Part shown: piece by piece, positions 27,835 to 49,215 of the stretch | Numbering within the stretch: position 1 is the first letter of the stretch | How the letters are laid out: each line of letters begins with the position of its first letter | From: an uncultured Terracidiphilus sp. | GTDB lineage: Bacteria > Acidobacteriota > Terriglobia > Terriglobales > Acidobacteriaceae | Length of the DNA: 64,000 nt | Reading direction: 5' to 3' | NCBI GenBank assembly: GCA_964420185.1 | Contig: CAYQSI010000010.1 | Location: 4,456 to 68,455 of the forward strand | Position numbers and translations under genes: made by a program | Notes under the pieces: generated by a model | Told to the model about the DNA's origin: nothing | What the model saw: the letters and a program-made list of their open reading frames with translations, nothing else | Database searches by the model: none

Positions 27835-30800
27835 ATGAAGCTCACGAATCACAAGGGTTTGCGCGCCGGCAGATGGATGGGGCTGTTGTTAGTAGTGGTG
27901 TGCCTGATGGGGATGGGCAGCGGGGCCTACGCACAGGCGATCAGCACGACGACGGTTCAGGGGACGGTGTATCTGGCGAACGGCCAGCCCGGCACAGGGA
28001 CACTGGTGGTGAGCTGGCCATCGTTTACAACGGCGAATGGTCAGTTGGTTGCCGCCGACAGTACGACGGTGGCGATTGCGCCGGACGGATTTGTAAGCGT
28101 GAATCTGGCTCCTAACTTGGGAGCGACGCCGGCGGGGCAGTATTACACAGCGGTTTACTACCTGAGCGACGGGACGACAAACACCGAGTATTGGATGGTG
28201 CCAGTGGGGGCGCAGGCGACCTTGGGGCAGGTGCAAGCGCAGTTGATGCCGGCGGCGCAGGCCGTTCAGGCGGTGAGCAAGGCATATGTGGACCAAGCGA
28301 TTGCAGGGGTTTCTGAAAGCCTGCTGACGGCGTCCGGCGGGACGTTGAGCGGGCCGCTGACCTTGAGCGGAGATCCGACACAGCCATTGCAGGCGGCGGA
28401 CAAGCACTATGTGGATGAGACGTTTGCACTAGCTGTACCGCAGGCGGGCGGAAGCATGACGGGAGCTTTGGCAACGCCGGCAGTGAATGGAGTGGAGTCT
28501 CCGGCGACGGGAAGCCCGCAGACGACACTGCAAGCGGCGATGAGCGCGGCGGGGAGCAATGGAGCGGTGGAGATTCCGCCGGCTTATGCGGGGACGGATG
28601 GATTCAATAATCCGAACGGCGTGTACGTGGCCGATTTGCGGCAGGGAAGCTCGCAGCAGTTTGAGCGCAGCGTGAAGGAATTCGGCGCGGTGTGCGATGG
28701 GAACACGGACGACACCAACGCGCTGCAGTCGGCGTTGAACTATGCCGAGACGCACGGGGTGGCATTGACGATTCCGCAGGGAACCTGCAAGACGCGGACC
28801 CTGATCTGGCATGGAGAGTCGATCGGCGGGATGGGCAAGCAGGTGTCCGCACTGATGGGCTTTCCCGGACAGGATGTGCTGTTGACGATGACCGACAGCG
28901 CAAACCTGCTGTCCTACACGCGGATTCACGATCTGACGATCTATGTAGATCAAAGCCAGGATGTATCTTGCTCGGCGGCCAAGGGGCTAGCACCGGCGGG
29001 AAGCTGCGCGCAGAATCGACCGCTGGAGAGCAACTCGATTTTTTCGCCAAGCGGGAACGGGCTGACCGGAACAGCAGGAAGCGGAACGGCGTGGGCGGTG
29101 GGCAATTGCGCGATTGCGATGCCGGCGACCACCGGAGCAGGCGGAAATGGGCTGAAGGTGGCGGAGCTCGAGAACCTGGAGATTGCGGCGACGGGCGCGG
29201 ACCCTATGGCTGCGCAGTATTCAGGCGCGCACTCGACGCACACTTGCGGGTTGTATCTGGCGCAGTGGCCGCAGTGGAGCGAGTTTCGGAACATCGATAT
29301 TCGCGGGCTGAATACGGGGATAGCAATTCCAGCTCTTTTCGGAACGACTCCAGCAGGATTAACCGCGGATTCAAATCGTTGGCAGAACATCACGATTCAG
29401 GCGACGCACGGGTTTACGACAGCGGCGGGCTCGAACAACGTGCTGGATAACTTGGTGGTGATAGCGGGAAATTCAGCGGCGACCGGCGAGCCGCCTACGG
29501 GCGTGGTGCTGGATTTTGCGGGAACGCAACAGGGCTGGACGGTACGGAATTCCGTAGTGCTGCCAGCGTGGAACGCAGTGCAACCGGTACTGACTGTGAC
29601 CGCAGTTGGCGGGGCGGTGACCGGGGTGGCGGTGGGTTCGCAGGCCGGACTGGGGTTTGATCCGTATGGAGCGCAGGTTCCGTTGGCGTTCAGCGGGAGT
29701 TGCACAGCGCAGGCCGTAGGCAATGTAACGAGCAACGGAGCAATTGGGACGGTCACGGTAACGTCGGGCGGGGTGGGGTGTTCGGGAACGACGACGGCGA
29801 GCGTGAATGTGGCTGGGACGTGGGACACAGCCGCGCCCGTAAACCTGATTGCCGGGCAGAATATGACGTTCTATGGCGGAAATCTTCTGAAGGGCAACGG
29901 AGGATACACGGTTTGGAACGCGGCAGGCTCCCAGAGCTATGGAACGCAGTTGGACGGCGGCGGCGGGAGATTGCCGAGCGGAGGAACTTATGCGGCGCTG
30001 GTGGCAAACAACCCGCTAGGAAGCGCATATCCGGTAGATCAGTTTCCAGGCGCGGACTTTGGGGCCAAGTTACAGGCATGTATCAGCGCGTTGAACGCGA
30101 GTTATGGCGGAACGTGCGATGCACGGAATTTCACAGGGAATCTATCGATGGGATCGAACCTGACGATAGCGACAGCGAATGCGACCGTACTGCTGCCGTG
30201 CGCGACGATTTCGACGGCTAATCAGGTGATTGTGACGGCGGGAACGAGGAATGTGTCGCTGCGCGGGTGCGCCATGCGCGGCGCGAGCACGGCGAGTGGA
30301 AGCCAGGGCGGCACGGTGTTTCTGTACTCAGGAGCAAAAGCGATGGTGCAGGTGGGAGATACAACCTATGCTGCGGATACGCTGGGTTTCCACCTGGACA
30401 ATGTGGTGATAAATACAACGGCCGCAAGCAATGCAACCGTGCAGGGACTGGCAGCCTACCGCACACAGGAAATGGAGCTGGAAAGCTTGTATTTCCTGGG
30501 TAACTCGAACCAGACCGGCATGACACTGGATGGGACCGGGAATTATACGGGGGGAACATTCCTCGACAACGAGTTCACCGGATTCCAGACAGCGGTGAAT
30601 GCCATCGGGCACCAGATATCGAACCCTGCGACGACCGATTGGATGAACGCGAGCACGTTTGTGCGGTTGCACATTGATTGCCCGACGAGCGGGGGAAGCC
30701 CCATCAGCGGGAGTTATGGAATCAACCTGCAGCAGGGTGATGGAAACACGTTTACCGGAGGAGATATAGAAGGATGCTCGACGGCATTGCACCTGGGGCC

Positions 30801-33800
30801 GAACGCGCAGAATAACACGATTGTAGGGCTGAGGAACGAAAACTCGACCAATCAGGTTGTGGCGGATGCGGGCAGCCAATACAACAACTGGATGACGGGC
30901 GGAACGATGTTAGCCGGGCAGTTGACTGACAACGGCACACGCAACAGCTTCTTCGATACTTATCACCGGAGTTTCAACGGACTGAATGGCGATTGGTACG
31001 GGAGCCAGAAGGACGCCACAGTTACCAACCACTATCGGCTTGGAATCGGAGCAGGCAACGAGCGCGGATTGCTGGACCGCTATCAAACCGACTATGGATA
31101 CCGGTGGACGATGGGCTTGAGCGACGCGACGGCCGGCGAGCAGTTCTACCAGATTCTGGATGAGTTGAATAATGTGTACCGCGTCTCGATCGGACAGTAT
31201 AACAACGGCCAATCGAGCACTAACAACCAGACGGTGATCAATGCGGCAGGAGCAGGCGCGGTAGTGCTGAACGGCTCAAACAACGCGGGGACCGGCGGGG
31301 TGGTGATCGGGTCAGGCGGCGCGAACGAAACCACTGTGGCAACGATCAGCAATGCCGGGGACGCGCAGTTCAACGGGATGCTGCAGGTGGGGGGCACTTC
31401 AACTTTTACAGGGACAGCTACGGTCAAGAACCAGGCCGATGCGGAGATTGATGCGACTCTGTGGGCGGGATTGACGACAAGCCAGAAAGAGTCGTTCATC
31501 TACAAAGACTGGAACGGCAACAGCCAGTGGTACATGATGAAGGACGGGAGCAATAACTGGGCGCTGAGTTCAGCTATAGGCGGTCTGGACAGCTTCAAGG
31601 CATACCAAAGCACAAACAGCGGCGATACCTACGTCGATGCATCGAACGCTTCCGGGGCAGTGCGCATCAACTACGAACCTGGATCGGGGGCTCAGTTCAA
31701 AGTATATGGAGGGAACAGCAGCACTCTCTATGCCTCCTTCACCGGACCAACATCGATTCAATTTCCGGGGATTGCGGCGAGCAGCGGTCATAACTGCCTG
31801 CAAATCGATAACTCTGGATATATCACCAATACCGGGACAACCTGCGGAACAGGAAGCACCAACGGCACGGTCAACGCCGGGACCAGCGGGCAGATAGCCT
31901 ATTACAACGGTGCAGGGACAGTACTGTCCGGAACAAGCACGGTTTCAATTGCGGCGGGAGGGACCGGGTCTTCGACGGCTTCAAGCGCGCTGACAAACCT
32001 GGGTGGGGCTGCGCTGGCGGGCGCGGCGTTTACGGGAGCGGTGAGTGCGCCGGCTATGTCTGCGAAGAATAGCGCCAGCATCGGGCCACGCTACGACGTG
32101 ACGCAGTATGGCGCAGTGGGCAACGGCTCGACCGATGATACGGCTGCGGTTCAGGCGGCTTTCAATGCTTGCTACAACGGTGGGACGGTTCCTTATGGCG
32201 GCGTGGTGGAGTTTCCGGGGAACAAAACCTACATTGTCTCCTCCACGATCAACGGCCATAACTCCTGCCAGGTGGAGGGCGTCGTTGGTAACTACACGGT
32301 GGCGAACGCACCGCCTAAACTCGCATGGAACGGCGCGGCTGCGGGAACGGTTTCGACCATCACCGCTTACAGCATCACGTCGAACGTGGCGACCTTTACC
32401 GCCGCGAACAGTCTGACCGTGGGACAGTTCGTCGATATTGAGGGGCTGACTACCGGCTTCTATCTGAATCGCGCTATCTTGCAGGTGACCACGGCTTCAA
32501 GCACTCAGTTCACGGCGACACTGCCCTTTGGCTGGGCTAATGTCGGTTCGACCTCCGACTCCGGTACGGCTACCACAGCCAACGTCATGCTGGCCTTCGA
32601 CTCCAATGCCCGGTATCAGCAGTCGATCAGTAATATGATGCTGTTGCCTGTGGCGCCCTTGGCGAGCAAGACGCTGCAAGTGGCCGCTTACTTCGGTTCT
32701 CGCGTGGACACCGGGACGCACATCCTCAACGTTGAAGCGGACAACGCGAGCGAGTATGGGTTCTACTTCGCAGACGGCGGAATCAATGTCGATTTCGACA
32801 AAGGATGGCGCTGCGATGGAGCGGGACTCTCCTGCATTTATTGGCGCGTGGGCGGGATCGATAACCTGAAGATCGCCAACGGTACGGTGGACAACAACTC
32901 CGGCGCGCAGATGACGGCGAGCGGCGGCGCTTTAATGCTGGACGATGGAGCTTGCAACGCCAACGATTCGATGTTGCTGTCTTCAAGCCACATGGATTTC
33001 GAGGTTAACTCGACCATTACTTCCGGCCTGGGAGTTTATACGTTCTATGACTGCCCTTCGAATAACGGAGTGGAATCATTCTACGTTTCGCTGGATGCGA
33101 ACAGGGTTGGTGGGGCTGGATTTTATACTGCGGGATTCAACTTCCCGACCATCGTCATGTCTCCCGCGAATGACGCGGCGCTGGGGTTGACGGTCATCAA
33201 CGGGGAGTTCGAGAGCGGTTCCGGGCCGAACAATTCTCCGCGCTGGGTTGGGTTGCCACAGTTACAACGGGACGATGCTTACGGGTATACAGGCCGGATT
33301 CCGTTTCTGAGTTTTGCTCCGGCGCTTGCAAGCGCGGGTTTGTCATCGAGTAATAAAACGCCAATTAGCCTGATTGACGATGTGCAGATTAGCCAACTGT
33401 GGCAGCATGGTGTGGCGGCTTCGGCCTTTCTCTACTCGGACACAGCTTTTGCAGCGATGCCCAACGGAACGACACTGTTCGCTGGCCAGATCCTTGCGCC
33501 TCCCAGTTACTGGAAGGGCGCGGCTGGGAAACGATATGCCCTTGACGTGGTGTATCAGACAGGAACGACAGGAACTCCGAACAGCGGGGCCACCACCTGC
33601 ACGGGCACCACTGCGGGCACTCTGACTTGTAGCAGCGCTACCGACTTATCGGTAGGTCAGAGGGTCGCGATCGGGACCGATACAAACAAGAACATCAACT
33701 ACGTGGATGCGACGAATCCGAGCGCGGTGCTGGTTTACGTTGGATGGCTTGCGCAGAATTATACGACGGCTACTGCTCTCTCGTTCTCCGCGCCGGTGCT

Positions 33801-34956
33801 TGGTCCAGAGATGCAGATGCCTACGAAGTCTTTCGCGATTCCTACGGCGCTGACCTGGAGCCAGGGTGACTATCTGCAAAACTCCGGCGCGGTAGCAAAT
33901 GGAATTGCGGGATGGGTCAATGTGGTTGCGGGCACGCCGGGAACGTGGGCCGGGATTCCGCTGGGTAACGCCAGTGGGCTGCTGAATCTATCTCAGATAT
34001 TCGGCACGTCCAGCACTAGCCCGGTGTGCCCGAATGGAACGGGCGGAACACTCACCACAGTTGGATGCGTGAGTGGTGGGAGTAGCGGTGTAACAAGCAT
34101 TAACAGCAACACCGGCGCGTTCACCTTCAATGGCGCCGGGGTGAGCTGCACCGGGACTACCTGTTCTTTCACCGGCGGTACAGGCAGCGGCACGGTGCAG
34201 AGTGGTACGGCCTACTCTCCGGCGTACTATCCTTCGGGCGGTGGAACGGTAGTGGCTGGTGTGACTCCGTTCAGCGGCCTTGCATGGTGGTCAACGAGCG
34301 CGGCTCCGGCTCAGGCGACGGCGGCGCAGATCGTGGGCGCCATCGGCTCGACAGCAGTTACCAATGCAACCAACGCAGCCAATCTATCCAACGGCGCAGT
34401 TGGCTCACTGCCGTATCAGAGCGCGGCGGGTGCGACAGCCTTTGTCGCCAGCCCCACGACCAGCGGCCACACGTTTGTGCCAGCTTGGCAGCCGAGCGGC
34501 TCGGCTATCGCGCCAGGAGCCGTTGATGTCAGTACCTTGAATGTTAATTCGGCGGCCACAGCAACAGCTCTGAGCGCAGCTTCCGCGCTACCCAACGGCA
34601 CGACAAGCACTACGCAGGCCACAGCAGATACCAGCACGGATCTAGCTACAGATGCTTTCACTCATAACGTAGCCTATCCGGTTGCCAATACGACCTTCAC
34701 GACCAGCACGGCGAGCGTAGCGGCGAACACCTGTAACTCTACCGTGCAGGTTGCCATGAGTGGAGTAACAACCAGCATGACCTTCCTCATCACTCCTAGC
34801 GCAGACACAAGCGGCGCAACGGGGTGGGGTAGCACCGGAGGTTTAATTCTGGATGTGTGGCCCACTGCGGGCTATCTTAACTACAAGATTTGCAACCAGA
34901 CTGCGACGGCCATTTCTTTACCCAGCGCGGTGACGTTCAACGCGGGAGCGAGATAG
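27835..34956 (+). CDS. Giant (2373 aa) secreted tail-fibre/tailspike-like protein with two pectate-lyase-fold (beta-helix) modules
   Basis: Sec-type leader 'GLLLVVVCLMGMGSGAYAQA'. Tail-fibre collar words 'SGGTLSGPLTLSGDPTQPLQAADKHYVDE' and, near the C-terminus, 'GTTSTTQATADTSTDLATDAFT'. Two beta-helix N-cap signatures: 'VKEFGAVCDGNTDDTNALQSALNYA' (about nt 28670) and 'VTQYGAVGNGSTDDTAAVQAAFNAC' (about nt 32095). Confidence 0.85.
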   Translation: MKLTNHKGLRAGRWMGLLLVVVCLMGMGSGAYAQAISTTTVQGTVYLANGQPGTGTLVVSWPSFTTANGQLVAADSTTVAIAPDGFVSVNLAPNLGATPAGQYYTAVYYLSDGTTNTEYWMVPVGAQATLGQVQAQLMPAAQAVQAVSKAYVDQAIAGVSESLLTASGGTLSGPLTLSGDPTQPLQAADKHYVDETFALAVPQAGGSMTGALATPAVNGVESPATGSPQTTLQAAMSAAGSNGAVEIPPAYAGTDGFNNPNGVYVADLRQGSSQQFERSVKEFGAVCDGNTDDTNALQSALNYAETHGVALTIPQGTCKTRTLIWHGESIGGMGKQVSALMGFPGQDVLLTMTDSANLLSYTRIHDLTIYVDQSQDVSCSAAKGLAPAGSCAQNRPLESNSIFSPSGNGLTGTAGSGTAWAVGNCAIAMPATTGAGGNGLKVAELENLEIAATGADPMAAQYSGAHSTHTCGLYLAQWPQWSEFRNIDIRGLNTGIAIPALFGTTPAGLTADSNRWQNITIQATHGFTTAAGSNNVLDNLVVIAGNSAATGEPPTGVVLDFAGTQQGWTVRNSVVLPAWNAVQPVLTVTAVGGAVTGVAVGSQAGLGFDPYGAQVPLAFSGSCTAQAVGNVTSNGAIGTVTVTSGGVGCSGTTTASVNVAGTWDTAAPVNLIAGQNMTFYGGNLLKGNGGYTVWNAAGSQSYGTQLDGGGGRLPSGGTYAALVANNPLGSAYPVDQFPGADFGAKLQACISALNASYGGTCDARNFTGNLSMGSNLTIATANATVLLPCATISTANQVIVTAGTRNVSLRGCAMRGASTASGSQGGTVFLYSGAKAMVQVGDTTYAADTLGFHLDNVVINTTAASNATVQGLAAYRTQEMELESLYFLGNSNQTGMTLDGTGNYTGGTFLDNEFTGFQTAVNAIGHQISNPATTDWMNASTFVRLHIDCPTSGGSPISGSYGINLQQGDGNTFTGGDIEGCSTALHLGPNAQNNTIVGLRNENSTNQVVADAGSQYNNWMTGGTMLAGQLTDNGTRNSFFDTYHRSFNGLNGDWYGSQKDATVTNHYRLGIGAGNERGLLDRYQTDYGYRWTMGLSDATAGEQFYQILDELNNVYRVSIGQYNNGQSSTNNQTVINAAGAGAVVLNGSNNAGTGGVVIGSGGANETTVATISNAGDAQFNGMLQVGGTSTFTGTATVKNQADAEIDATLWAGLTTSQKESFIYKDWNGNSQWYMMKDGSNNWALSSAIGGLDSFKAYQSTNSGDTYVDASNASGAVRINYEPGSGAQFKVYGGNSSTLYASFTGPTSIQFPGIAASSGHNCLQIDNSGYITNTGTTCGTGSTNGTVNAGTSGQIAYYNGAGTVLSGTSTVSIAAGGTGSSTASSALTNLGGAALAGAAFTGAVSAPAMSAKNSASIGPRYDVTQYGAVGNGSTDDTAAVQAAFNACYNGGTVPYGGVVEFPGNKTYIVSSTINGHNSCQVEGVVGNYTVANAPPKLAWNGAAAGTVSTITAYSITSNVATFTAANSLTVGQFVDIEGLTTGFYLNRAILQVTTASSTQFTATLPFGWANVGSTSDSGTATTANVMLAFDSNARYQQSISNMMLLPVAPLASKTLQVAAYFGSRVDTGTHILNVEADNASEYGFYFADGGINVDFDKGWRCDGAGLSCIYWRVGGIDNLKIANGTVDNNSGAQMTASGGALMLDDGACNANDSMLLSSSHMDFEVNSTITSGLGVYTFYDCPSNNGVESFYVSLDANRVGGAGFYTAGFNFPTIVMSPANDAALGLTVINGEFESGSGPNNSPRWVGLPQLQRDDAYGYTGRIPFLSFAPALASAGLSSSNKTPISLIDDVQISQLWQHGVAASAFLYSDTAFAAMPNGTTLFAGQILAPPSYWKGAAGKRYALDVVYQTGTTGTPNSGATTCTGTTAGTLTCSSATDLSVGQRVAIGTDTNKNINYVDATNPSAVLVYVGWLAQNYTTATALSFSAPVLGPEMQMPTKSFAIPTALTWSQGDYLQNSGAVANGIAGWVNVVAGTPGTWAGIPLGNASGLLNLSQIFGTSSTSPVCPNGTGGTLTTVGCVSGGSSGVTSINSNTGAFTFNGAGVSCTGTTCSFTGGTGSGTVQSGTAYSPAYYPSGGGTVVAGVTPFSGLAWWSTSAAPAQATAAQIVGAIGSTAVTNATNAANLSNGAVGSLPYQSAAGATAFVASPTTSGHTFVPAWQPSGSAIAPGAVDVSTLNVNSAATATALSAASALPNGTTSTTQATADTSTDLATDAFTHNVAYPVANTTFTTSTASVAANTCNSTVQVAMSGVTTSMTFLITPSADTSGATGWGSTGGLILDVWPTAGYLNYKICNQTATAISLPSAVTFNAGAR

Positions 34957-40081: not shown

Positions 40082-40104
40082 GGGGCGGAAAAAGGAAGGT
40101 GCAC

Positions 40105-41385: not shown

Positions 41386-41495
41386 AGCATTGTAAATCTG
41401 TAATGCCAGAGTCGTGGTATCCCACCCTTGCCGCAAGAACAAAAACGCGGCAAGGATGGGGCACCCAGGACCTTACACGATCCCTAGAAATGCTC
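41385..41495. mobile_element. Family-A MITE, full copy (111 bp)
   Basis: TIRs 'gagcatt..'/'..aaatgctc'. The core hairpin is 'ccttgccgc-aagaacaaaaac-gcggcaagg', followed by 'atggggcacccagg'. The first base overlaps the portal stop codon. Confidence 0.85.
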
Positions 41496-41502
41496 GAGTG
41501 AA

Positions 41503-42735: not shown

Positions 42736-42798
42736 TAACTGATTACTGATAGCTGTCAACCGGAGTACGACTGGCCCCATGGAGGGGGCGAAAAGCCT

Positions 42799-43767
42799 AT
42801 GAACGCAAACTTTGCAGACATTCACGCGGCAGCAGATTATATCGGGCCGGGCGCTATCGAAGTTCCGTTGTATCAGACCGAGATTTTCGACATCTGCCGC
42901 CGTTCGAGTCCCTTCGGACAGCGCATCAAGCAGGTTCCGGCAACGGGACATCCGTCGCGCTTCTTCGAGGAGACGGCGATTCCGAATCCAGGGACGGCCG
43001 GCTTTATGAATCCGCGCGCCATTGTGCCCGCGGTTGTAAGTCCGACACGGGTGGAGCGGAGCGTGCCGCTGAAGGCAATCGTCTCGCAGATCAATTACAA
43101 CCTCTTCGACATCGAGCTGGGCGATCAGCAGAAGCAGTTTGCCTATCTGCAAGCCAAGGACCTGGTGGACACAGTGAGCGGCGTGATGGTAGCGCACGAC
43201 GTGGCTCTGTGGAACGGCAACGACACCAGCCTGAGCACGCCGACGACCACGCAGTACATGGGCGCTATTCCGCAGATTGTTGCGGGCGGATTGACGACGA
43301 CCATCGGCACGACGGCATCGATTGTGGACGGGCTGAAATCGGCGGTAGCGCAGATGGTGGCCAACAACGGCTACTATGTTCGGCCCACGGCGATTTACGC
43401 CAACCCGGTGCTTCTGGATCTGATCGACCGGGAGATGAAGACCGAGTTCAATGTGGTGCTGAACACAGACAACATCACGGGCGGAATCCGGGTGAAGATG
43501 CTCTCGACGCAGGCGGGCGATCTGCCGCTGATTCCGGATTGGAGCTTGAGTTACACAGGCACGCCGGGCTCGGGAACAGCGGTCCTGCCGGCCTACATTG
43601 TGACCGAGGATCTGATCGAGTATCACTGGCTCGGCGATCCGGCGCCGCGTGTCTTCCAACTGGGGTTGCCCAACTCACTGGCTTACCAGTATGTTGCGGT
43701 GAAGTTTGGCGCCGTGGTGGTGAAGGGCGCTAACTACGCGCACTACCAGGTGCTGGTAGACAGGTAA
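42799..43767 (+). CDS. Major capsid protein (HK97-fold size class)
   Basis: 322 aa, following protease and scaffold. The composition is typical of coat proteins. No delta domain, which fits a separate scaffold. Confidence 0.7.
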   Translation: MNANFADIHAAADYIGPGAIEVPLYQTEIFDICRRSSPFGQRIKQVPATGHPSRFFEETAIPNPGTAGFMNPRAIVPAVVSPTRVERSVPLKAIVSQINYNLFDIELGDQQKQFAYLQAKDLVDTVSGVMVAHDVALWNGNDTSLSTPTTTQYMGAIPQIVAGGLTTTIGTTASIVDGLKSAVAQMVANNGYYVRPTAIYANPVLLDLIDREMKTEFNVVLNTDNITGGIRVKMLSTQAGDLPLIPDWSLSYTGTPGSGTAVLPAYIVTEDLIEYHWLGDPAPRVFQLGLPNSLAYQYVAVKFGAVVVKGANYAHYQVLVDR

Positions 43768-43874: not shown

Positions 43875-44498
43875 ATGGCATATCTGCAGCCAGCGGATTA
43901 CCCGAATTATGGATTGCCGGCGGGAACGACGGTGGACTGGATTACGGCCGCCACGGCATTGATTAACAGCTACTGCAGGCGGCCGGACCTGAACGTGATT
44001 CAGTACACGGAGCGGTTGCGGCTGACCAGCGGATCGCAGGCGGTGTTATTGAGTTATCTGCCGCTGGCGCCTCTGGGAACGGCGACAACGCCGATTGTGA
44101 GCATCGAGGGCAGGTATGCAAGGCCGCGGCGGGGAGAGCTTCCGAACGAACCGTTGATGGAGATTGCGATGGCGTTCTCGCTGCCTGGGCAGTGGACGGC
44201 GATTGATCCTGGCTCGGTGGACTTTGACCCCAACACGGGGGAGCTGATGCTGCCGTGGAATGTGCTGGGACTGCCGTACAACGAGGTGGCGGTGACTTAC
44301 ACGGCTGGATTGACGACGATTGGCGACGACGTGAAGACGGCATGCGCGCAGATTGTGCGGAATGCGCAGTCAACGCCGGCGCTGAATGCAAGCAAGACCA
44401 AGATCGACACGATGCAGATGCAGTATTTTTCGAGTTCGCTGGTGGACGAAACGGTGCAGGCCTGGCTGCGTCCCTACATAGCGAACAGGCTGGGGTGA
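43875..44498 (+). CDS. Hypothetical phage protein, possibly head-tail adaptor
   Basis: 207 aa. The call rests on position after the capsid gene. The N-terminal 'LQPADY..YGLPAGTTVDWITAATALINSYCRR' resembles gp6-like connector openings. Confidence 0.4.
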   Translation: MAYLQPADYPNYGLPAGTTVDWITAATALINSYCRRPDLNVIQYTERLRLTSGSQAVLLSYLPLAPLGTATTPIVSIEGRYARPRRGELPNEPLMEIAMAFSLPGQWTAIDPGSVDFDPNTGELMLPWNVLGLPYNEVAVTYTAGLTTIGDDVKTACAQIVRNAQSTPALNASKTKIDTMQMQYFSSSLVDETVQAWLRPYIANRLG

Positions 44499-44501
44499 GC
44501 G

Positions 44502-44936
44502 ATGAGCGATACGGCGGCGCGCAACCCTGTGGGAGCGCCGCGGATGCTGGCCGATGCCTTGCTGCGAAGCATGACAGGAACGACGGCCCTTCTGCGGGTA
44601 ACGGGAGCGAATGCGAATAGCAGCCAGTCCGAGGTGGGGCTGGTGGCAACGACCTTTTCCGAAGTGGTCATAAGCCCGGTGGTGATGCGCAAGTTGCGTC
44701 CCGCCTGGCAGGAGGCCGGCGAGTCAAAGTCGGAGTTACTGGTTTCAGCGAGTGGGGTGGAGCAGCAGGTGAGCGCGCTTGATCTTGCATCGGCCCAGTC
44801 TCTCTTTGCGATGACTCTGGCGGTTACGGTGGCGGGACAGGATTACCTGATTGAGTCTGTTGCCGCAAACGAAGCCTTCGGTCAGGTGTATCTCTACCGG
44901 TTACTGTTGCGGGAAGCAAGGCAGCAGGCAGTGTAA
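44502..44936 (+). CDS. Hypothetical phage structural protein
   Basis: 144 aa. The start lies 3 nt after the previous stop, on the same strand. Confidence 0.45.
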   Translation: MSDTAARNPVGAPRMLADALLRSMTGTTALLRVTGANANSSQSEVGLVATTFSEVVISPVVMRKLRPAWQEAGESKSELLVSASGVEQQVSALDLASAQSLFAMTLAVTVAGQDYLIESVAANEAFGQVYLYRLLLREARQQAV

Positions 44937-45026
44937 AGACAGTGGTCAGGGGACAGTGCTCAGTTCAAGGCAGACGGCCGTCAGAGGCATAAAGCTGTAC
45001 GCGCGAGGCACGAGGAGTTGTACTCC

Positions 45027-45512
45027 ATGCAAAATGCGAAAGATTCGTTTTATATGACACTGCGCACGCGGCTGGCGGTGGTCAATCCGGAACGGACGAT
45101 CCTGCTGCGCGGAGCAGTGCGGCCAGGGATTTTGGCGGAGGAAGCCGAAGCTCCCTTCAGCCAACTTCCCAGCGATGTGTTCATTCTGCGCTGGACAGGT
45201 CTGGGCGTCGATTTTGATCTCGGGTCCACGATGGTGGCCGAGCAGTGCGAGATTCTCTATCAGACGTGCGGAACGCAAAGCTTTGGCGGGCTGGACCGCG
45301 GCCGGACGCTGAGCGAGATGGACGAGGAACTGGCAGCGATGGTGCAGCCTTTCTACACACCCAAACTGAATTACACGGCAACGCCGCCAGCATCGATGCT
45401 GACGAAGGTGTTCTGGGATGAGCCGGAATTTGCGCCGGCCGTAGTCCAGCGGGACCGGCTGAGCCGTTCCGCAAGTGTGATGGTTTACAGCTACCAGGAG
45501 AAGGGGGAGTAA
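45027..45512 (+). CDS. Hypothetical phage structural protein
   Basis: ATG at 45027 lies 9 nt after GAGGAG (the ORF track starts at TTG 45018). Confidence 0.45.
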   Translation: MQNAKDSFYMTLRTRLAVVNPERTILLRGAVRPGILAEEAEAPFSQLPSDVFILRWTGLGVDFDLGSTMVAEQCEILYQTCGTQSFGGLDRGRTLSEMDEELAAMVQPFYTPKLNYTATPPASMLTKVFWDEPEFAPAVVQRDRLSRSASVMVYSYQEKGE

Positions 45513-46487
45513 ATGGCGGCGAATTGGATTTCGGCTCCCGCCCCGGTGTCGCGGCGGGGTCGAGGGTATTTTGCGCCGGTGAACCGGACGGCGCAGACGC
45601 CAGTGCTCTTCGATCCAGCGGAGCAGGGCACATTCAGCCTGGACGCTCCGCCGGCTCCGTGGATCAGCCTGGGTTGGATTCAAGAGTTCACACGCAAGCC
45701 GGGAAGCAAGACCGCCGCAGTATTGACGGGCATTCCCGCAGGGACTCTGGAGCAGGTACGCGAAACGCTCGAGGCGCAGGTGAGCTTCGAATTTTTGAGC
45801 TGGACAAAGCTGACCATGGCTCTAGCCACAGGCTCTCAGCACATGAACCTGCTGGCTCCCGCAAGCGGGGCTGGCCCAGCCGCGGATGGCGCTCAGGCGG
45901 CTTCCGCAGTAACGGCGCAAAGCGGATCGACAGCTACATTCATAGCGCTGGCCGCGACCGACGCCGCAAAATTCTTGCCGGGCTCGATCATCGCATTGGA
46001 CACGGATTATGTGGGACAGACGGGCTTTGTGGGCGCACCCATATCGGGAGCGTATGTGCGGCAGGCACTTACCGATGTGGATTACATCCGGCGCGTGACC
46101 TTCAACGTCGCGTTGGTGTCCCAGGTCAACTCTACCGGGTTGACACTCGCCGGGCCGTTGCCGGGCGGCGCTCCGGCGGCAGGTTCCAAGTTGCAGGCGG
46201 TCACTGGGTTTGTGGATCGCGAAGGTGGAAGTTTCTATCAGGAGTGGTCGGCGCTGTTTGTCATGGAAGGCAGCCAGGGGGAACGGATCTTCTTCCACTA
46301 TCCACGCCTGCAGACGATTGCCAGCGCACAAGAAGCCGCATTGCCGTTGGACGGAAAGAATAAGAACGGGTTGGCCCGGGTGTTGCTCAAAGGCCAGTTT
46401 CTGGCGCTGCCCGTAACCGATCCGCTGGATGGGGAACGGGTTATCTGTTACCGGAGCTTCTTGCCGGCGGCCAATGCACTGGTGTAA
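45513..46487 (+). CDS. Hypothetical phage protein, possibly a tail component
   Basis: 324 aa. The ATG abuts the previous stop (TAAATG). Family not recognised. Confidence 0.45.
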   Translation: MAANWISAPAPVSRRGRGYFAPVNRTAQTPVLFDPAEQGTFSLDAPPAPWISLGWIQEFTRKPGSKTAAVLTGIPAGTLEQVRETLEAQVSFEFLSWTKLTMALATGSQHMNLLAPASGAGPAADGAQAASAVTAQSGSTATFIALAATDAAKFLPGSIIALDTDYVGQTGFVGAPISGAYVRQALTDVDYIRRVTFNVALVSQVNSTGLTLAGPLPGGAPAAGSKLQAVTGFVDREGGSFYQEWSALFVMEGSQGERIFFHYPRLQTIASAQEAALPLDGKNKNGLARVLLKGQFLALPVTDPLDGERVICYRSFLPAANALV

Positions 46488-46513: not shown

Positions 46514-48829
46514 ATGAAGATCACGATCAACGGGCAAGACTACACGGCCACGCTCGATGCAGTGCGGCCGTTGACGATTGAGCGCAAACTGAACGAGCCC
46601 TCTGTATGTCAACTGTGGCTGAGCTTGCCAAGCAACGGCACCTTACAGATGCCCTTGCGCAACCAATCCATGGCGGTAACTGGCGATGATGGAACTTGTT
46701 ATTTTACGGGTTACATTGCGGTAACGCCACAGCCTGAATATGCCGGCTTTGCGATGGAGGGCCCGCGCTACAGGATTGCCGTCCAGGCCTTGAGCGACGA
46801 ACTACTGCTGGACCAATTGCTAATGCCTCCCAGCACGGGCTCAACAGGCGAAAGCGCCGGGGCGCTATTGACTGCGCTGGTAACTCGCACGGGAGCCACC
46901 ACGCTATCAACTCAAGGGCTTTCGCTTAGCGCGGCGGTGAGTAACTTCGTTCCCGATCCTGGAGCGGCGTGGAGCACGAGCGCGGGACAGGTGGCAAGCA
47001 TGGCGCGGGCCGCGTATCGTGCGATCAATGGCGCTCTGACGGTCTGCCCAGTGCAGAGTACTGTGCATCCGCTGAACGAAACAAGCGGCAGCCTCAACCT
47101 GGCAACCCTGTCGCTTACGGCCAGCGTCAAGCGCGCCCTGGCAAACGATGTGACGGTTTGCGGCGAGCACGAGCCGGTTGCTTATGTGACCGAATACTTT
47201 CTGGGTGACGGGGTAACAACACAGTTTTATCTTGCGGCCGATCCTTTCTTTCTGGCTTCATCCAAGTCCACCATCATCAGCGAGCTATTCAACCAAGCCC
47301 AGATTAACGAGCGCGTGTGGGGCGTTAGCGGCGGAGCCGGTTATCTCTCGCTGGGCGCTGGCGGACTCACGATGAATGGCGGCAATGGCATTGACGGGGA
47401 AACATTGCTGACCTGGCTTGACCCGGTGGAGATGGGCGGAACGCTGCTGCTGGAGGCTGTGGGTGTAACTCTTTCCCCAGGCAGCACGGGGGCCTTGGCT
47501 GGTTTCTTTGTGGGTATGGACACGCAGGCCATGTGCATTGCTGGCTTCCACGCGACGGCGCAGCAAGGCACAGGGGCCGTCACATTGCAACCACTTATTC
47601 AGGGAAGCCCGGCGGGAACGGCTTATGCGATCAATCCTGCCAACCAATACACGCTGCGCGTTAGGGTGCATTGTCTGGAGAACGAACGGGAGTTGGCAAT
47701 CTATCGTTCCTTTGGAGATAGCGGAGCAATTACCTCCGGCGGGCAGTGGAATGCAGCTCCGGGAAACATTCAGATGGAGATCCAGCAGTTTGTCAACGGA
47801 GTGGGCGGGACGCCGGTGACGCTCTATGATGGAGCAATCGCCAGCCTTCCAGGCGCCTGCAATGTGGTGGCTGCGAGCAGCATCAACCTGATTGGAACCA
47901 TGCGCGCGCTCAATTTGACCAATCTCGGCTCTGGCTGGGTGGTGAGCACGCCCCCGGCAGGCGGTTCCTATACCCGACGGGTTGGTACGACGGCCGAGGC
48001 GGCTGAGTGTCATCTGGAGCGCACGGGCCAGGTGGTGTTTTACGCAGGATATGCACCCGTGGCCGGCGAACAGATTGCTGTGAGTTACCGCACGATGGGC
48101 AGGGCTGTGGGACGAGCAGTCAACGCTGCCAGCCAGCAGGCGCTTGCGCAGGCGGGAATGCCCGTTGAGGCCGCGTGGATCGGCTCGGTGACAAATCCAC
48201 CGGCGCGCAGTTCCGCGGATTGCCGCAATGCGGCTTTGGTTATGGAGCAGGCAGCGGCCGGCGTGAGCGCGCTGTGGAGCGGAAGTTACAAAGGAAGCAG
48301 AATGAGCTTCGCCACCGATGTGTGGCCGGGTGATGCGCTTTTGCTCAACGCGCCTTCAACCGACTTGAACGCGCAGGTGGTGGTGCGAACTGTTGCGATG
48401 AGTTACAGAGCAAGCTATCCAGACTTAGTGGAGTATGCTATCGCTTTTGCCAACGACTGGGCTGACGATCTGGCCATCAAGACCAGCGAGACAGTGCCTG
48501 CGGATGCGTGGCTTCCGGCGTCCATCGCACCCACCGTACTTGCCAATCTCAACGGCCTCACGGTGACAGCGTTGAATGGGAGCACGGTGACGATCAATGC
48601 CGGAGTTACGCCGCCCGCGGGTGGAGGATTCGAGATTCGGCGGCGGGATTTCGCCTTCATGCCAGGCGAAGACCCGGACCTGGTGATGCGGGCGACTCAG
48701 CCGACCATGACCTTTTCCCGCGCAACCGCCAACGACCGGTTCTATGTCAGGATGTATGACGGCTCGACGCCTCCGAACTACTCGGAGTTTTCAACGGCAT
48801 TGTTCATCAACCTGCCGCTGGGATCGTAA
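46514..48829 (+). CDS. Large phage tail/baseplate-type protein
   Basis: 771 aa. The N-terminal 'MKITINGQDYTATLDAVRPLTIERKLNEPSVCQLWLSL' resembles gpD/hub-like or tail-tubular openings. It is the last large structural ORF. Confidence 0.5.
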   Translation: MKITINGQDYTATLDAVRPLTIERKLNEPSVCQLWLSLPSNGTLQMPLRNQSMAVTGDDGTCYFTGYIAVTPQPEYAGFAMEGPRYRIAVQALSDELLLDQLLMPPSTGSTGESAGALLTALVTRTGATTLSTQGLSLSAAVSNFVPDPGAAWSTSAGQVASMARAAYRAINGALTVCPVQSTVHPLNETSGSLNLATLSLTASVKRALANDVTVCGEHEPVAYVTEYFLGDGVTTQFYLAADPFFLASSKSTIISELFNQAQINERVWGVSGGAGYLSLGAGGLTMNGGNGIDGETLLTWLDPVEMGGTLLLEAVGVTLSPGSTGALAGFFVGMDTQAMCIAGFHATAQQGTGAVTLQPLIQGSPAGTAYAINPANQYTLRVRVHCLENERELAIYRSFGDSGAITSGGQWNAAPGNIQMEIQQFVNGVGGTPVTLYDGAIASLPGACNVVAASSINLIGTMRALNLTNLGSGWVVSTPPAGGSYTRRVGTTAEAAECHLERTGQVVFYAGYAPVAGEQIAVSYRTMGRAVGRAVNAASQQALAQAGMPVEAAWIGSVTNPPARSSADCRNAALVMEQAAAGVSALWSGSYKGSRMSFATDVWPGDALLLNAPSTDLNAQVVVRTVAMSYRASYPDLVEYAIAFANDWADDLAIKTSETVPADAWLPASIAPTVLANLNGLTVTALNGSTVTINAGVTPPAGGGFEIRRRDFAFMPGEDPDLVMRATQPTMTFSRATANDRFYVRMYDGSTPPNYSEFSTALFINLPLGS

Positions 48830-48984: not shown

Positions 48985-48987
48985 CTG

Positions 48988-49215
48988 ATGCGGATGATGA
49001 ATGAATTCGAAGCGCAGGTGTTGAGCGATTTGAGCGTGCTGAAGACGCAGATGACCGGCCTGATGGGCGACGGCAACGGCGGACGCATGGCCGATCTGGA
49101 ACGGCGCATGGAGCGCCACGAGCAAAACTGGCAGCGCGCCAAGGGATTTCTGGCGGCTGTCAGCGTAGTATTCGCGGTCATCGAAGTGGCTGTGCGGGCG
49201 CTGTACCGGCATTGA
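48988..49215 (+). CDS. Small tail-anchored membrane protein (75 aa)
   Basis: Hydrophilic, coiled N-terminal part and a single C-terminal TM segment 'GFLAAVSVVFAVIEVAVRALY'. Last ORF of the phage-like block. Confidence 0.4.
   Translation: MRMMNEFEAQVLSDLSVLKTQMTGLMGDGNGGRMADLERRMERHEQNWQRAKGFLAAVSVVFAVIEVAVRALYRH

What the first reader, a model, noticed from the sequence alone, without database searches (positions are those of the whole stretch)
27835..49215. Structural-genes-only phage-like block (GTA-like or domesticated particle?) with both flanks visible
Between the isoaspartyl peptidase gene (ends 26884) and typA (starts 51224) every gene is on the + strand. In order they are: giant tail-fibre-like gene, two small secreted proteins, terminase large subunit, the kinase cassette, portal, S78-like protease, coiled-coil scaffold, 322-aa capsid, ORFs of 207, 144, 162, 324 and 771 aa, and a 75-aa tail-anchored protein. 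On either flank I recognise no integrase or recombinase, repressor or Cro, replication genes, small terminase, tape-measure protein or endolysin, and no tRNA or obvious att duplication. GC and codon usage look host-like. All ORFs are intact. Host MITEs and GTTAGC elements occupy the intergenic spacers. Gene transfer agents and other domesticated phage-derived particles combine an intact head, neck and tail with no lifecycle genes and host-type composition. A recent prophage or a decaying remnant usually does not. I am not aware of such an element described for Acidobacteriota.
Basis: partly seen in the sequence, partly recalled or inferred. Interest (0 to 1): 0.75.

Follow-up and report, generated by a model that had tools for sequence, protein, structure and literature searches.

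The report
Inherited phage-like particle genes in Acidobacteria
A 21-kb block of intact phage head, DNA-packaging, neck and tail-tip genes, with no genes for a phage life cycle, sits at the same chromosomal spot in hundreds of peat-soil Acidobacteria species and is conserved as tightly as a housekeeping gene, so it looks like a phage the bacteria have tamed (possibly a gene transfer agent) and not an ordinary prophage.

Summary
Window 27835-49215 is an all-plus-strand block. HMM, profile or structure evidence identifies TerL, a HipA-like kinase/DUF3037 pair, the portal, an HK97-fold capsid, a head-tail adaptor and a siphovirus-type tail-tip protein. The giant beta-helix fibre is named from weaker domain hits. 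No integrase, repressor, replication gene, TerS, tape measure, endolysin or tRNA was found in the 64 kb.

The core terL-to-o75 is collinear in all 80 best species-representative genomes. The core lies between iaaA and (purEK-)typA. Its dN/dS is 0.07-0.13, against 0.077 for typA, and its divergence correlates with typA divergence. Two deeper Terriglobales clades keep 12 or all 14 genes: one at a different conserved locus, the other with two segments swapped.

The best reading is an ancient, vertically inherited, host-maintained phage-derived particle locus. GTA-like DNA transfer is plausible but untested.

Four oddities remain:
- The kinase/DUF3037 pair, a relative of the HipAD defence system, is integral to the block.
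- There is no TerS or tape measure.
- The fibre carries a Sec-type signal peptide.
- A few lineages show decay, or have lost terL from the locus.

I found no published description of it as a GTA-like element.

The parts
27835..34956 (+). Giant (2373 aa) fibre/tailspike-like protein. It has a Sec-type signal peptide, a conserved N-terminal domain of about 170 aa, fibre motifs and a pectate-lyase-like beta-helix. The body is hypervariable between species.
   Evidence: PF12708 at 3.9e-10, with weak endosialidase N-terminal and pre-neck-appendage hits. The signal peptide and fibre motif are read from the translation. Homologues at 33-80% identity lie upstream of terL in many loci. A homologue is embedded between o324 and terL in clade 3.
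34958..35632 (+). 224-aa secreted ConA-like lectin/glucanase-fold protein. It is a lineage-specific accessory of the variable left arm.
   Evidence: PF13385 Laminin_G_3 at 2.5e-6. The N-terminal signal peptide is seen. There is no homologue in the 80 related loci.
35642..36025 (+). 127-aa ORF of unknown function. Not conserved, and not a recognisable small terminase.
   Evidence: No Pfam, PHROG or PADLOC hit. No homologue in related loci. DNA conservation starts only at about 36181.
36222..37793 (+). Terminase large subunit, with the ATPase and nuclease motifs conserved.
   Evidence: phrog_2 at 1.5e-23 and other TerL PHROGs. 115 invariant residues, including the KARQxGxTT, LHCSE, DPAGGG and HDD motifs. 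dN/dS 0.12.
38092..38961 (+). HipA-like Ser/Thr kinase (HipA_2 family), the toxin-like half of a HipAD/PDC-M66-type pair.
   Evidence: PF20613 at 4.9e-11. PDC-M66A at 6e-9. phrog_3162 at 2.4e-15. The catalytic-loop region is invariant in 64 orthologues. Present between terL and the portal in all three clades.
38979..39815 (+). DUF3037 protein, partner (antitoxin-like) of the kinase.
   Evidence: PF11236 at 3.6e-17. PDC-M66B at 6.6e-8. The pairing is described as a toxin/antitoxin-like defence system in PMC12548924 and PMC13092281.
40040..40075 (+). Strong hairpin (16-bp stem) followed by a T-run, between the DUF3037 gene and the probable true portal start. Candidate terminator separating two transcription units.
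   Evidence: The N-terminal 5-17 codons of the portal ORF hold stop codons in 16 related loci, so this stretch is probably non-coding.
40048..41385 (+). Portal protein (the true start is probably somewhat downstream of 40048).
   Evidence: PF04860 at 9.8e-52. phrog_2662 and phrog_12. dN/dS 0.087.
41503..42030 (+). Candidate prohead protease (175 aa).
   Evidence: Position between portal and scaffold. 48 invariant residues, including His, Ser and Asp candidates. No HMM or PDB sequence hit. The function is inferred.
42150..42548 (+). Candidate scaffold protein (132 aa, helical/coiled-coil-like). The ORF can be extended back to 41937.
   Evidence: The JGI gene call is 132 aa. Only the C-terminal two thirds is conserved in relatives. 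Position just before the capsid gene. Inferred.
42799..43767 (+). Major capsid protein with the HK97 fold. It is the most conserved gene of the element.
   Evidence: AlphaFold2 pLDDT 78.7, pTM 0.72. Foldseek: 371 PDB matches at E <= 1e-3, including SPO1, HK97 and RcGTA capsids and encapsulins, and 277 BFVD matches. 85-98% identical in the 80 species loci. dN/dS 0.069.
43875..44498 (+). Head-tail adaptor.
   Evidence: phrog_442 at 8.2e-18. Conserved in order in all loci.
44502..44936 (+). 144-aa neck-position protein (head-closure/stopper candidate).
   Evidence: Position only. Conserved, dN/dS 0.095. No hits.
45018..45512 (+). 164-aa neck-position protein (tail-terminator candidate).
   Evidence: Position only. 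Conserved, dN/dS 0.128. No hits.
45513..46487 (+). 324-aa protein, possibly a tail tube protein.
   Evidence: Position between the neck genes and the tail tip. The model is poor (pLDDT 46.9). The single Foldseek hit at E <= 1e-3 is the tail tube of Acinetobacter phage Mystique (E 1.3e-4, TM about 0.3). This is weak. dN/dS 0.093.
46514..48829 (+). 771-aa tail-tip (central fibre/hub-type) protein of siphovirus ancestry.
   Evidence: hhalign of profile A4 against Tunturiibacter phage Tunturi_4 gp15: probability 99.8%, E 3.6e-30, 684 columns. gp15 lies just after the tape measure and gp14 in that phage. tblastn hit.
48988..49215 (+). 75-aa protein with a C-terminal transmembrane segment. It is the last conserved gene of the element; a role as a holin-like or membrane-docking factor is speculative.
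   Evidence: Sequence. 77-93% identical in 64 loci, dN/dS 0.069. Homologues follow o771 in clade 2 and clade 3.
41377..41498 (.). One of three copies of a 122-nt MITE-like host repeat in the spacers. The others are at 42617-42738 and 49274-49395, with a partial copy at 37839-37863.
   Evidence: The same repeat hits scattered positions in related loci.

Best explanation
The block is an ancient phage-derived gene cluster that the bacteria now keep for their own use. It is chromosomally fixed and vertically inherited in Terriglobales (Acidobacteriota).

What it encodes. The 14 conserved genes are:
- the exported giant fibre;
- TerL;
- the HipA-like kinase;
- the DUF3037 partner;
- the portal;
- a probable protease;
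- a probable scaffold;
- the HK97-fold capsid;
- the adaptor;
- two neck proteins;
- a probable tube protein;
- a siphovirus-type tail-tip protein;
- a small tail-anchored membrane protein.

These would build a head that packages DNA through the portal using TerL. The head would be joined to a neck and a very short tail: tip plus at most a short tube, because there is no tape measure.

What it lacks. The cluster has no integrase, replication, immunity, TerS or lysis genes, so it cannot spread as a phage. It persists because the host benefits from the particles.

Most likely function. The particles are probably GTA-like and package DNA without sequence specificity. The kinase/DUF3037 pair would act either as a gate or kill-switch for producer cells, or as a resident anti-phage/addiction module.

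What is shown:
- gene identities for 8 of the 14 genes;
- conserved order and locus;
- purifying selection;
- co-divergence with the host;
- absence of lifecycle genes in the 64 kb.

What is inferred: particle formation, DNA content, transfer, and the role of the kinase.
For: Gene content.

Breadth. The best 80 are 85-98% identical. All are Acidobacteriaceae/Terracidiphilus MAGs, plus the complete genome of Telmatobacter bradus DSM 23630. There are 4724, 5107 and 3520 homologous 90%-identity clusters in metagenomes, on contigs up to 3.9 Mb.

Synteny. The core is collinear in 80 of 80 loci. All 13 core genes are detected in 45 loci; most of the others are cut by contig ends, and in nine species terL is absent from the locus. 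typA is downstream in 41 of 49 loci with enough flank, usually after the host genes purE-purK. iaaA/maf is upstream in L022 and L053.

Selection. dN/dS is 0.07-0.13 for all core genes except the over-extended scaffold query (0.25, n = 8). Capsid is 0.069 and typA 0.077, with dS about 1 in both the element and typA. The same holds inside a sub-clade.

Co-divergence. Mantel r is 0.33-0.66 between typA and element-gene distances, p <= 0.018.

Deeper clades. Clade 2 keeps 12 of the 14 genes, from terL to the o75 homologue, next to a 2-oxoacid dehydrogenase E2 gene in 3 of 3 long contigs. A large unconfirmed fibre-like ORF precedes terL in L109, and the scaffold is assigned by position only. Clade 3 keeps all 14 genes with two segments swapped.

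Signs of long residence. Host MITEs lie in the spacers. GC is host-like and codon usage matches same-strand host genes.

Negatives. No integrase, repressor, replication gene or tRNA in the window. The capsid has no relative among 50,697 phage records and only 301 50%-identity clusters among 1.84 billion proteins.
Against: - There is no experimental or omics evidence that particles form or carry host DNA.
- No TerS, tape measure, tail chaperones or endolysin/holin was found in the window. Clade 2 has a Peptidase_M15_3 gene a few kb away, but the window and clade 1 do not.
- The tail may therefore be incomplete.
- The fibre has a Sec-type signal peptide, which is hard to reconcile with cytoplasmic virion assembly.
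- In nine species terL and the fibre are not at the locus. A few lineages carry internal stops or deletions: L022, L039, L020, L009, L029 and L113.
- A toxin-antitoxin-like pair inside the block could help retention by addiction.
- Mantel correlations are moderate, and dS of the tube and tip genes is about twice that of typA. Some exchange between lineages is therefore likely.
- dS is near saturation, so the dN/dS values are approximate.
Confidence: 0.62

Rival explanations
1. Host-maintained phage-derived particle with a function other than DNA transfer. Examples are a decoy or interference device against related acidobacterial siphoviruses working together with the HipA-like kinase, a bacteriocin-like or protein-delivery particle, or a compartment. 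TerL may be dispensable in some lineages.
For: The HipA_2/DUF3037 pair, related to a validated defence system, is integral in all clades. Nine species keep hipA-to-o75 under dN/dS 0.05-0.15 without terL at the locus. There is no TerS. The tail tip is homologous to that of a real Acidobacteriota phage. The fibre is exported.
Against: Where TerL and the portal are present, both are under purifying selection with catalytic motifs intact, which argues for DNA packaging. terL may simply lie elsewhere in the nine genomes. No defence phenotype is known for structural-gene blocks of this kind.
Confidence: 0.17
2. Cryptic prophage remnant that persists passively, stabilised by the toxin-antitoxin-like HipA/DUF3037 pair, with no selected function for the structural genes.
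For: There are no lifecycle genes. A TA-like pair sits inside the block. Some lineages show stops, deletions, IS insertions and rearrangements.
Against: Addiction cannot keep 12 other genes intact. All show dN/dS of 0.05-0.15 at dS of about 0.5-1.7 across tens of species and three clades. Capsid conservation equals that of typA. Neutral remnants would be riddled with frameshifts at this divergence.
Confidence: 0.07
3. Helper-dependent element of the satellite or capsid-forming-island type, or a defective phage. It supplies the head, neck and tip but borrows TerS, tail parts and lysis functions from co-resident phages.
For: It encodes its own TerL, portal, capsid and connectors but lacks TerS, TMP and lysis genes. 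This resembles capsid-forming PICIs, which steal only tails (own knowledge of Alqurainy et al. 2023). A jumbo-phage-like contig carries a lone capsid homologue at 68% identity.
Against: There is no integrase, regulator (AlpA-like) or replication module. The chromosomal position is fixed, and the element co-diverges with the host. It carries its own tail-tip and fibre genes.
Confidence: 0.1
4. Ordinary active temperate prophage that integrates site-specifically next to typA/iaaA.
For: IMG/VR pipelines such contigs viral. Eichorst et al. 2018 listed acidobacterial 'prophage' clusters that may include it.
Against: There is no integrase, att site, tRNA, repressor, replication gene or lysis gene in 64 kb. 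dS of about 1 between copies parallels the host gene. Host MITEs, and host genes such as purEK, abut the ends directly. The left arm differs between species.
Confidence: 0.03

Closest known systems
RcGTA-type gene transfer agents of Alphaproteobacteria (Rhodobacter capsulatus GTA; viriforms)
   Same: A phage-like head-to-tail structural cluster in TerL-portal-protease-capsid-adaptor-neck-tube-tip order. It has no integrase or replication genes. It sits at a fixed chromosomal locus, is inherited vertically across a large clade, is under purifying selection, and has host-like composition. Receptor-binding parts evolve fastest.
   Different: There is no sequence relationship beyond the generic HK97 fold (RcGTA capsid 6tb9 is just one of hundreds of Foldseek hits). 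There is no recognisable TerS, tape measure or tail chaperones. A HipA-like kinase/DUF3037 pair sits between terL and the portal. The fibre carries a signal peptide. The phylum is different. Function is untested.
Other independently domesticated elements (Bartonella BaGTA, Brachyspira VSH-1, Desulfovibrio Dd1, Methanococcus VTA, Bacillus PBSX)
   Same: The concept is the same: a phage-derived particle encoded by the host that cannot propagate itself (own knowledge of the GTA literature, e.g. Lang, Zhaxybayeva and Beatty 2012, cited).
   Different: No homology was detected. PBSX-like elements keep a repressor, lysis genes and a full contractile tail. None is reported from Acidobacteriota: searches for 'gene transfer agent' with Acidobacteria or Terriglobia found no such description.
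Tunturiibacter phage Tunturi_4 (siphovirus of Acidobacteriota, PP885687.1)
   Same: Its gp15 virion protein, which lies just after the tape measure, is homologous to o771 over 684 columns (hhalign probability 99.8%). The adaptor / neck / tail-terminator / major-tail order is similar.
   Different: It is an 88-kb real phage with a tape measure and chaperones. Its major tail, terminator and neck proteins show no detectable similarity to o324, o164 or o144. Its capsid is unrelated by sequence.
HipAD / DS-6 / PADLOC PDC-M66 (HipA-family kinase + DUF3037 protein)
   Same: An adjacent HipA_2 kinase and DUF3037 protein that match PDC-M66A/B. The published system is a kinase toxin neutralised by the DUF3037 partner, and it defends against phage.
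   Different: Here the pair is embedded in a structural-gene cluster and co-inherited with it across three clades. The HMM matches are weak (about 1e-8). No DUF1829 domain was detected. The role is unknown.
Capsid-forming phage-inducible chromosomal islands (cf-PICIs)
   Same: They encode their own TerL, portal, protease, capsid and connectors without a complete tail (own knowledge).
   Different: cf-PICIs carry integrase, regulators, replication genes and TerS, and they are mobile. This element has none of these, has its own tail tip and fibre, and is fixed in the chromosome.
Acidobacterial 'prophage' Cluster 153 (Eichorst et al. 2018) and the shared 'DNA Virus Contig 5' of Sphagnum metagenomes (PMC12142844)
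   Same: These are possibly earlier sightings. Cluster 153 groups prophage-like regions shared by Terriglobus, Terracidiphilus gabretensis and Koribacter. Contig 5 is a phage-like contig present in all samples that maps to an Acidobacteriaceae genome.
   Different: I could not verify identity with this element. Both papers interpret their regions as (possibly degraded) prophages, without synteny or selection analysis.

Membership tests
Gene transfer agent / viriform (functional class) | Phage-like structural and packaging genes encoded in the host chromosome | tested here: met
   TerL, portal, HK97 capsid, adaptor, tail tip and fibre. They lie on a 282-kb chromosomal contig near dnaN, gidB and parAB.
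Gene transfer agent / viriform (functional class) | No means of self-propagation (integrase/excision, replication, immunity) | tested here: met
   None found in any sizeable ORF of the 64 kb, and no tRNA. The rest of the genome could not be searched.
Gene transfer agent / viriform (functional class) | Vertical inheritance at a conserved locus with purifying selection across a host clade | tested here: met
   80 of 80 loci are collinear, typA/iaaA anchor the locus, dN/dS is 0.07-0.13, and Mantel p <= 0.018.
Gene transfer agent / viriform (functional class) | Particles package random host DNA, less than needed to carry the cluster itself | not testable with these tools
   Needs particle purification and sequencing. 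The absence of TerS is compatible with this feature but proves nothing.
Gene transfer agent / viriform (functional class) | Host-regulated production, release, and transfer to recipients | not testable with these tools
   No regulator or lysis gene was identified in the window. The o75 membrane protein and the kinase pair are only candidates.
RcGTA-like family (homology) | Sequence homology to the RcGTA head-tail cluster proteins | tested here: not met
   Only generic TerL, portal and adaptor PHROG/Pfam hits. The capsid has no Pfam hit, and the RcGTA capsid is a mid-rank fold match among hundreds.
Temperate prophage | Integrase with att sites, plus immunity, replication and lysis modules | tested here: not met
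   No flanking direct repeats were found. Host purEK/typA and iaaA abut the element.
Capsid-forming PICI / phage satellite | Integrase, AlpA-type regulator, replication module and TerS; no tail genes; mobile distribution | tested here: not met
   None of these genes is present. Tail-tip and fibre genes are present. The locus is fixed.
Tailocin / phage-tail-like bacteriocin | Tail-only particle with no capsid, portal or terminase | tested here: not met
   Capsid, portal and TerL are present and conserved.
Encapsulin nanocompartment | HK97-fold shell with cargo, and no portal or terminase | tested here: not met
   Portal, TerL, adaptor and tail tip are present. Encapsulins appear only as fold neighbours.
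HipAD / DS-6 / PDC-M66 defence pair | Adjacent HipA-family kinase and DUF3037 protein | tested here: met
   PF20613 and PF11236. PDC-M66A/B at 6e-9 and 6.6e-8.
HipAD / DS-6 / PDC-M66 defence pair | Kinase toxicity neutralised by the partner; protection against phage | not testable with these tools
   Only conservation of the kinase motifs is shown.

The most novel reading that the evidence does not exclude
This is the first gene transfer agent of Acidobacteriota. It would be an independently domesticated, short-tailed particle with no TerS and no tape measure. Its production or the fate of producer cells would be controlled by a built-in HipA-like kinase/DUF3037 switch. Its receptor-binding fibre would be exported through Sec. 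It would be carried by a large share of Terriglobales and would mediate routine DNA exchange among some of the most abundant bacteria of peat and acidic soils. It would also inflate 'viral' contig counts in soil viromics.
Probability: 0.33. Interest if true: 0.9.

Novelty: new variant of a known kind. Interest (0 to 1): 0.78.

Why it matters
Acidobacteriota (Terriglobales) dominate acidic soils and peat, yet almost nothing is known about how they exchange genes.

A particle-making locus that is conserved across the lineage and under selection would be a new, independent case of phage domestication, in a phylum with no known GTA. It offers a cultured entry point: Telmatobacter bradus DSM 23630 carries a complete copy.

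It raises two mechanistic puzzles:
- a kinase toxin/antitoxin-like pair wired into a head-gene cluster;
- packaging and tail assembly without TerS or a tape measure.

It also has practical weight. Thousands of variants of this block occur in public metagenomes, and IMG/VR lists them as viral genomes. Soil virome surveys are therefore likely to count a host locus as phage.

Tried and rejected
- Pfam, PHROG and PADLOC scans gave nothing for o127, o175, o203, the capsid, o144, o164, o324, o771 and o75. Divergent orthologues also gave nothing.
- Profile searches of PDB sequences with alignments of the capsid, o324, o771, o175, o164 and o144 gave nothing. The only exception was a marginal SPO1 Gp6.1 hit for the capsid, E 0.0036.
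- tblastn of the capsid against 50,697 phage records found no match.
- The o324 structure prediction failed to reach usable confidence (pLDDT 46.9). The tail-tube reading is only a hint.
o771 could therefore not be modelled.
- A TerS candidate upstream of terL in L053 (177-aa ORF) has no homologue anywhere else. It was rejected.
- The giant protein's N-terminus is not homologous to o771.
- Tunturi_4 major tail, terminator and gp7 proteins are not detectably related to o324, o164 or o144.
- The consensus promoter/terminator scan was no better than chance, apart from one strong hairpin.
- My first intactness screen over-called defects. The portal and scaffold queries were over-extended at their N-termini, and nanopore MAGs carry frameshifts. 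This was corrected.
- A first codon-usage comparison suggested foreign usage (r = 0.48). It proved to be an artefact of strand-specific G3/C3 bias.
- The low-GC ImmA/IrrE island beyond typA was considered as a possible regulator module of the element. It was rejected because it is absent from relatives in which recA follows typA.
- Literature searches for a described acidobacterial GTA found none.

Full report
**1. What is in the window**

Between the isoaspartyl peptidase gene (25814-26884, minus strand) and typA (49407-51299, minus strand) every sizeable ORF is on the plus strand and uninterrupted. Model-based searches give these identities:
- TerL, 36222-37793: phrog_2, 1.5e-23.
- A HipA_2-family kinase, 38092-38961, followed by a DUF3037 protein, 38979-39815.
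- The portal, 40048-41385: PF04860, 1e-51.
- A head-tail adaptor, 43875-44498: phrog_442, 8e-18.
- A 2373-aa protein with a pectate-lyase-like beta-helix, 27835-34956.

The 322-aa 'capsid' has no Pfam, PHROG or phage-database relative. An AlphaFold2 model built on 36 diverse homologues (pLDDT 78.7, pTM 0.72) matches hundreds of HK97-fold capsids in the PDB and in BFVD, at E down to 1e-12 and 4e-18. It is therefore the major capsid protein.

The 771-aa protein is homologous over 684 columns to gp15 of Tunturiibacter phage Tunturi_4 (hhalign probability 99.8%, E 3.6e-30). Tunturi_4 is a real siphovirus of Acidobacteriota, and gp15 sits directly after its tape measure. o771 is therefore a tail-tip protein.

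The 175-aa 'protease', the 132-aa scaffold, and the 144-, 164- and 324-aa proteins could be assigned only by position. For o324 a poor model (pLDDT 46.9) gave one weak match to a phage tail tube.

**2. What is not there**

There is no tRNA. No ORF of the 64 kb has an integrase, recombinase, repressor, replication, small-terminase, tape-measure or endolysin domain. o324 ends at 46487 and o771 starts at 46514, so there is no room for a tape measure or chaperones. No conserved ORF precedes terL in any clade.

The window is origin-proximal chromosome: dnaN, rsmG and parAB lie at 2-13 kb. GC content in the block matches the flanks. Codon usage looked foreign at first. That was an artefact of a strong strand-specific G3/C3 bias. 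Against same-strand host genes RSCU r = 0.84, against 0.60 between host genes on opposite strands. The core shows a somewhat stronger G3 bias.

**3. Comparative evidence**

The best 80 are 85-98% identical. All are Acidobacteriaceae/Terracidiphilus MAGs, plus the complete genome of Telmatobacter bradus DSM 23630. In the 5.8-billion-protein collection the capsid and o324 have 4724 and 5107 homologous clusters, on contigs up to 2.5 Mb.

*Synteny.*
- tblastn of all window proteins against the 80 loci shows terL, hipA, DUF3037, portal, o175, scaffold, capsid, adaptor, o144, o164, o324, o771 and o75 in the same order in 80 of 80 loci.
- All 13 are present in 45 loci. Most of the remaining loci are cut by contig ends. 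In nine species terL is absent from the locus.
- typA lies downstream in 41 of 49 loci with enough flank, usually after the host genes purE-purK.
- iaaA/maf lies upstream where the flank reaches.

*Boundaries.* The conserved core runs from about 36181 (just before terL) to the end of o75. lamG224 and o127 are unique to this lineage. The giant gene is hypervariable, but a fibre-like gene precedes terL in most loci.

*Selection.* Pairwise dN/dS against the window is 0.07-0.13 for every core gene. The exception is the over-extended scaffold query (0.25, n = 8). The capsid is 0.069 and typA 0.077. dS is about 1 for both element and host genes. Element-gene distances correlate with typA distances (Mantel r 0.33-0.66, p <= 0.018).

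*Other signs of residence.* Host MITE-like repeats and 14-nt AGCTAAC-type units fill the spacers. These are the properties expected of a long-resident element that is inherited vertically and kept by selection. They are not those of a prophage or a decaying remnant.

**4. Deeper clades**

*Clade 2.* A second lineage ('Terriglobales bacterium' MAGs) has o324 at 45% and the capsid at about 74% identity. It shows 3520 clusters, on contigs up to 3.9 Mb. It carries the same core including the kinase pair. The core lies next to a 2-oxoacid dehydrogenase E2 gene in three of three long contigs. Beyond that single host gene lie further beta-helix proteins and, in two of the three contigs, a Peptidase_M15_3 gene.

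*Clade 3.* A third lineage (IMG/VR contig 3300047494_000274) has the order protease, scaffold, capsid, adaptor, o144, o164, o324, giant fibre, terL, hipA, DUF3037, portal, o771, o75. Two adjacent segments are swapped, all 14 genes are kept, and the fibre is embedded inside. The gene set is therefore conserved, not merely the operon order. The fibre, the kinase pair and o75 all belong to it.

**5. Decay and variation**

Real defects are few:
- L022 lacks terL and has an adaptor/o144 fusion.
- L039 has stops in terL and hipA.
- L020, L009 and L029 each have one internal stop.
- L113 has lost terL through to the first half of the portal.
- Several nanopore MAGs are full of frameshifts that are probably sequencing errors.

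In nine species, host genes (a permease and a butyrate-kinase-like gene) lie directly upstream of hipA, so terL and the fibre are not at the locus. The remaining genes there still show dN/dS of 0.05-0.15 within that sub-clade. Either terL sits elsewhere in those genomes, as in split GTA loci, or the particles can serve a purpose without packaging.

dS of o324 and o771 is about twice that of typA. This suggests exchange or deeper coalescence of the tail end.

**6. The kinase pair**

HipA_2 plus DUF3037 match PADLOC candidate system PDC-M66 A/B. Two recent papers show that such a pair (DS-6/HipAD; the effector of Retron-Sda1) protects E. coli from phage. The kinase is the toxic part, and the DUF3037 protein neutralises it.

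Here the pair lies between terL and the portal in all three clades. Its dN/dS is about 0.11 and its kinase motifs are invariant. A strong hairpin with a T-run follows it at 40040-40075.

Its role is inferred only. It could be a gate or kill-switch for producer cells, a resident defence module, or an addiction module. Addiction alone cannot explain selection on the twelve other genes.

**7. An unexplained feature**

The giant fibre starts with a textbook Sec signal peptide (MKLTNHKGLRAGRWMGLLLVVVCLMGMGSGAYA/Q). A conserved domain of about 170 aa follows, then typical fibre motifs. Its clade-3 homologues do the same. lamG224 is also secreted.

Virions assemble in the cytoplasm, so an exported fibre is unexpected. 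It may join particles after release, stay on the cell surface, or keep an uncleaved anchor. I could not test this.

**8. Interpretation**

The best-supported reading is a domesticated phage-derived particle locus of siphovirus ancestry, fixed in Terriglobales (confidence about 0.6). GTA-like transfer of host DNA is the most likely use, but it is unproven.

Rivals:
- A selected function other than DNA transfer, such as defence or a decoy (0.17).
- A helper-dependent element (0.10).
- A passively retained remnant (0.07).
- An active prophage (0.03).

It is not a homologue of RcGTA. It fails the defining features of prophages, cf-PICIs, tailocins and encapsulins (see the membership table).

**9. 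Prior knowledge**

Full-text searches found no description of a GTA-like element in Acidobacteriota. Two papers may have seen it in passing as 'prophage':
- Eichorst et al. 2018: Cluster 153, shared by Terriglobus, Terracidiphilus gabretensis and Koribacter.
- A 2025 Sphagnum study: a phage-like contig present in all samples that maps to an Acidobacteriaceae genome.

I could not verify identity with either. IMG/VR holds at least 25 contigs of this element labelled as viral genomes.

**10. Limits**

- Only 10 kb on each side of the capsid was visible in related genomes, and only one genome-collection scan was allowed. The fraction of Terriglobales that carry the element, and the rest of each genome, are unknown.
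- dS is near saturation, and NG86 pairwise estimates are rough.
- Five of the 14 conserved genes have no functional evidence beyond position. o324 has only a weak tail-tube hint in addition.
- Nothing here shows expression or particles.

Noticed in passing
window 51300-54200: A low-GC island (GC 0.49-0.52, against about 0.60 elsewhere) between typA and recA. It holds a 461-aa ImmA/IrrE-type M78 peptidase (PF06114; PADLOC hits to PDC-M69B, CapP and RmrA) and a 232-aa protein with no hits. RSCU correlation with host genes is -0.12. The island is absent from L006 and L014, where recA follows typA. It is probably a small strain-specific defence or mobile insertion unrelated to the phage-like block.
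   Followed up: partly
L107 (IMGVR_UViG_3300037116_000299, 214 kb) 10001-10966; also L106: A jumbo-phage-like contig carries a lone homologue of this capsid (68% identity). Its neighbours are nucleotide-metabolism and RNA-repair genes (DNA ligase, thymidylate synthase, polynucleotide kinase, CCA-adding enzyme, RNA ligase). No other element gene is nearby. Either a phage captured a host capsid gene, or the transfer went the other way.
   Followed up: partly
L061, L064, L065, L072, L073, L076, L078, L079, L080 (upstream of hipA): In nine species the element starts at hipA. Host genes (amino-acid permease, butyrate-kinase-like) lie directly upstream, and terL and the fibre gene are not at the locus. 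The remaining genes are still under purifying selection.
   Followed up: partly
L087 + L111 (IMGVR_UViG_3300047494_000274); also L089 and L099: Clade-3 arrangement in which the protease-to-o324 segment and the fibre-terL-hipA-DUF3037-portal segment are swapped. In L087 + L111, o771 and o75 still come last, and an ECF-sigma-like gene lies upstream.
   Followed up: partly
L109 19359-19811; L113 20218-20664: In clade 2 a Peptidase_M15_3 gene (endolysin-like cell-wall hydrolase) and large beta-helix proteins lie just beyond the single host gene (2-oxoacid dehydrogenase E2) that follows the element. No homologue exists in the window or in the clade-1 loci.
   Followed up: partly
window 49216-49406 compared with L075 16272-18246 and L036 16291-18136: Most relatives have the host genes purE and purK between o75 and typA. 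In the window these are missing, and o75 is followed after 191 bp (one MITE-like repeat) by typA.
   Followed up: partly
window 18410-24561, minus strand: Three tandem paralogues (667, 673 and 686 aa). Each has a DUF3857 domain and a transglutaminase-like core.
   Followed up: no
window 1-64000: Third-codon-position G/C usage depends very strongly on strand. Plus-strand genes have G3 0.41 and C3 0.31; minus-strand genes have C3 0.52 and G3 0.24. GC skew is positive throughout, next to dnaN, rsmG and parAB, which suggests a leading-strand region close to oriC. The skew peaks (0.30-0.33) over terL to portal.
   Followed up: partly
window 39836-39878 and 42553-42595; 41377-41498, 42617-42738, 49274-49395: Tandem 14-nt AGCTAACAGCT-type units and a 122-nt MITE-like repeat family occupy the spacers of the element. 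The same repeats occur at scattered places in related loci.
   Followed up: partly
L075 2215-3612 (Telmatobacter bradus DSM 23630); L056 about 1140-7109: An IS-type transposase (465 aa) is inserted between the fibre gene and terL in T. bradus. A 6-kb insertion separates DUF3037 from the portal in L056. The element tolerates insertions in its spacers.
   Followed up: no
window 27122-27499: The 125-aa ORF between iaaA and the giant gene overlaps inverted and direct repeats (27139-27171/27260-27292; 27266-27290/27344-27368). It is probably a repeat-element region, not a gene.
   Followed up: no
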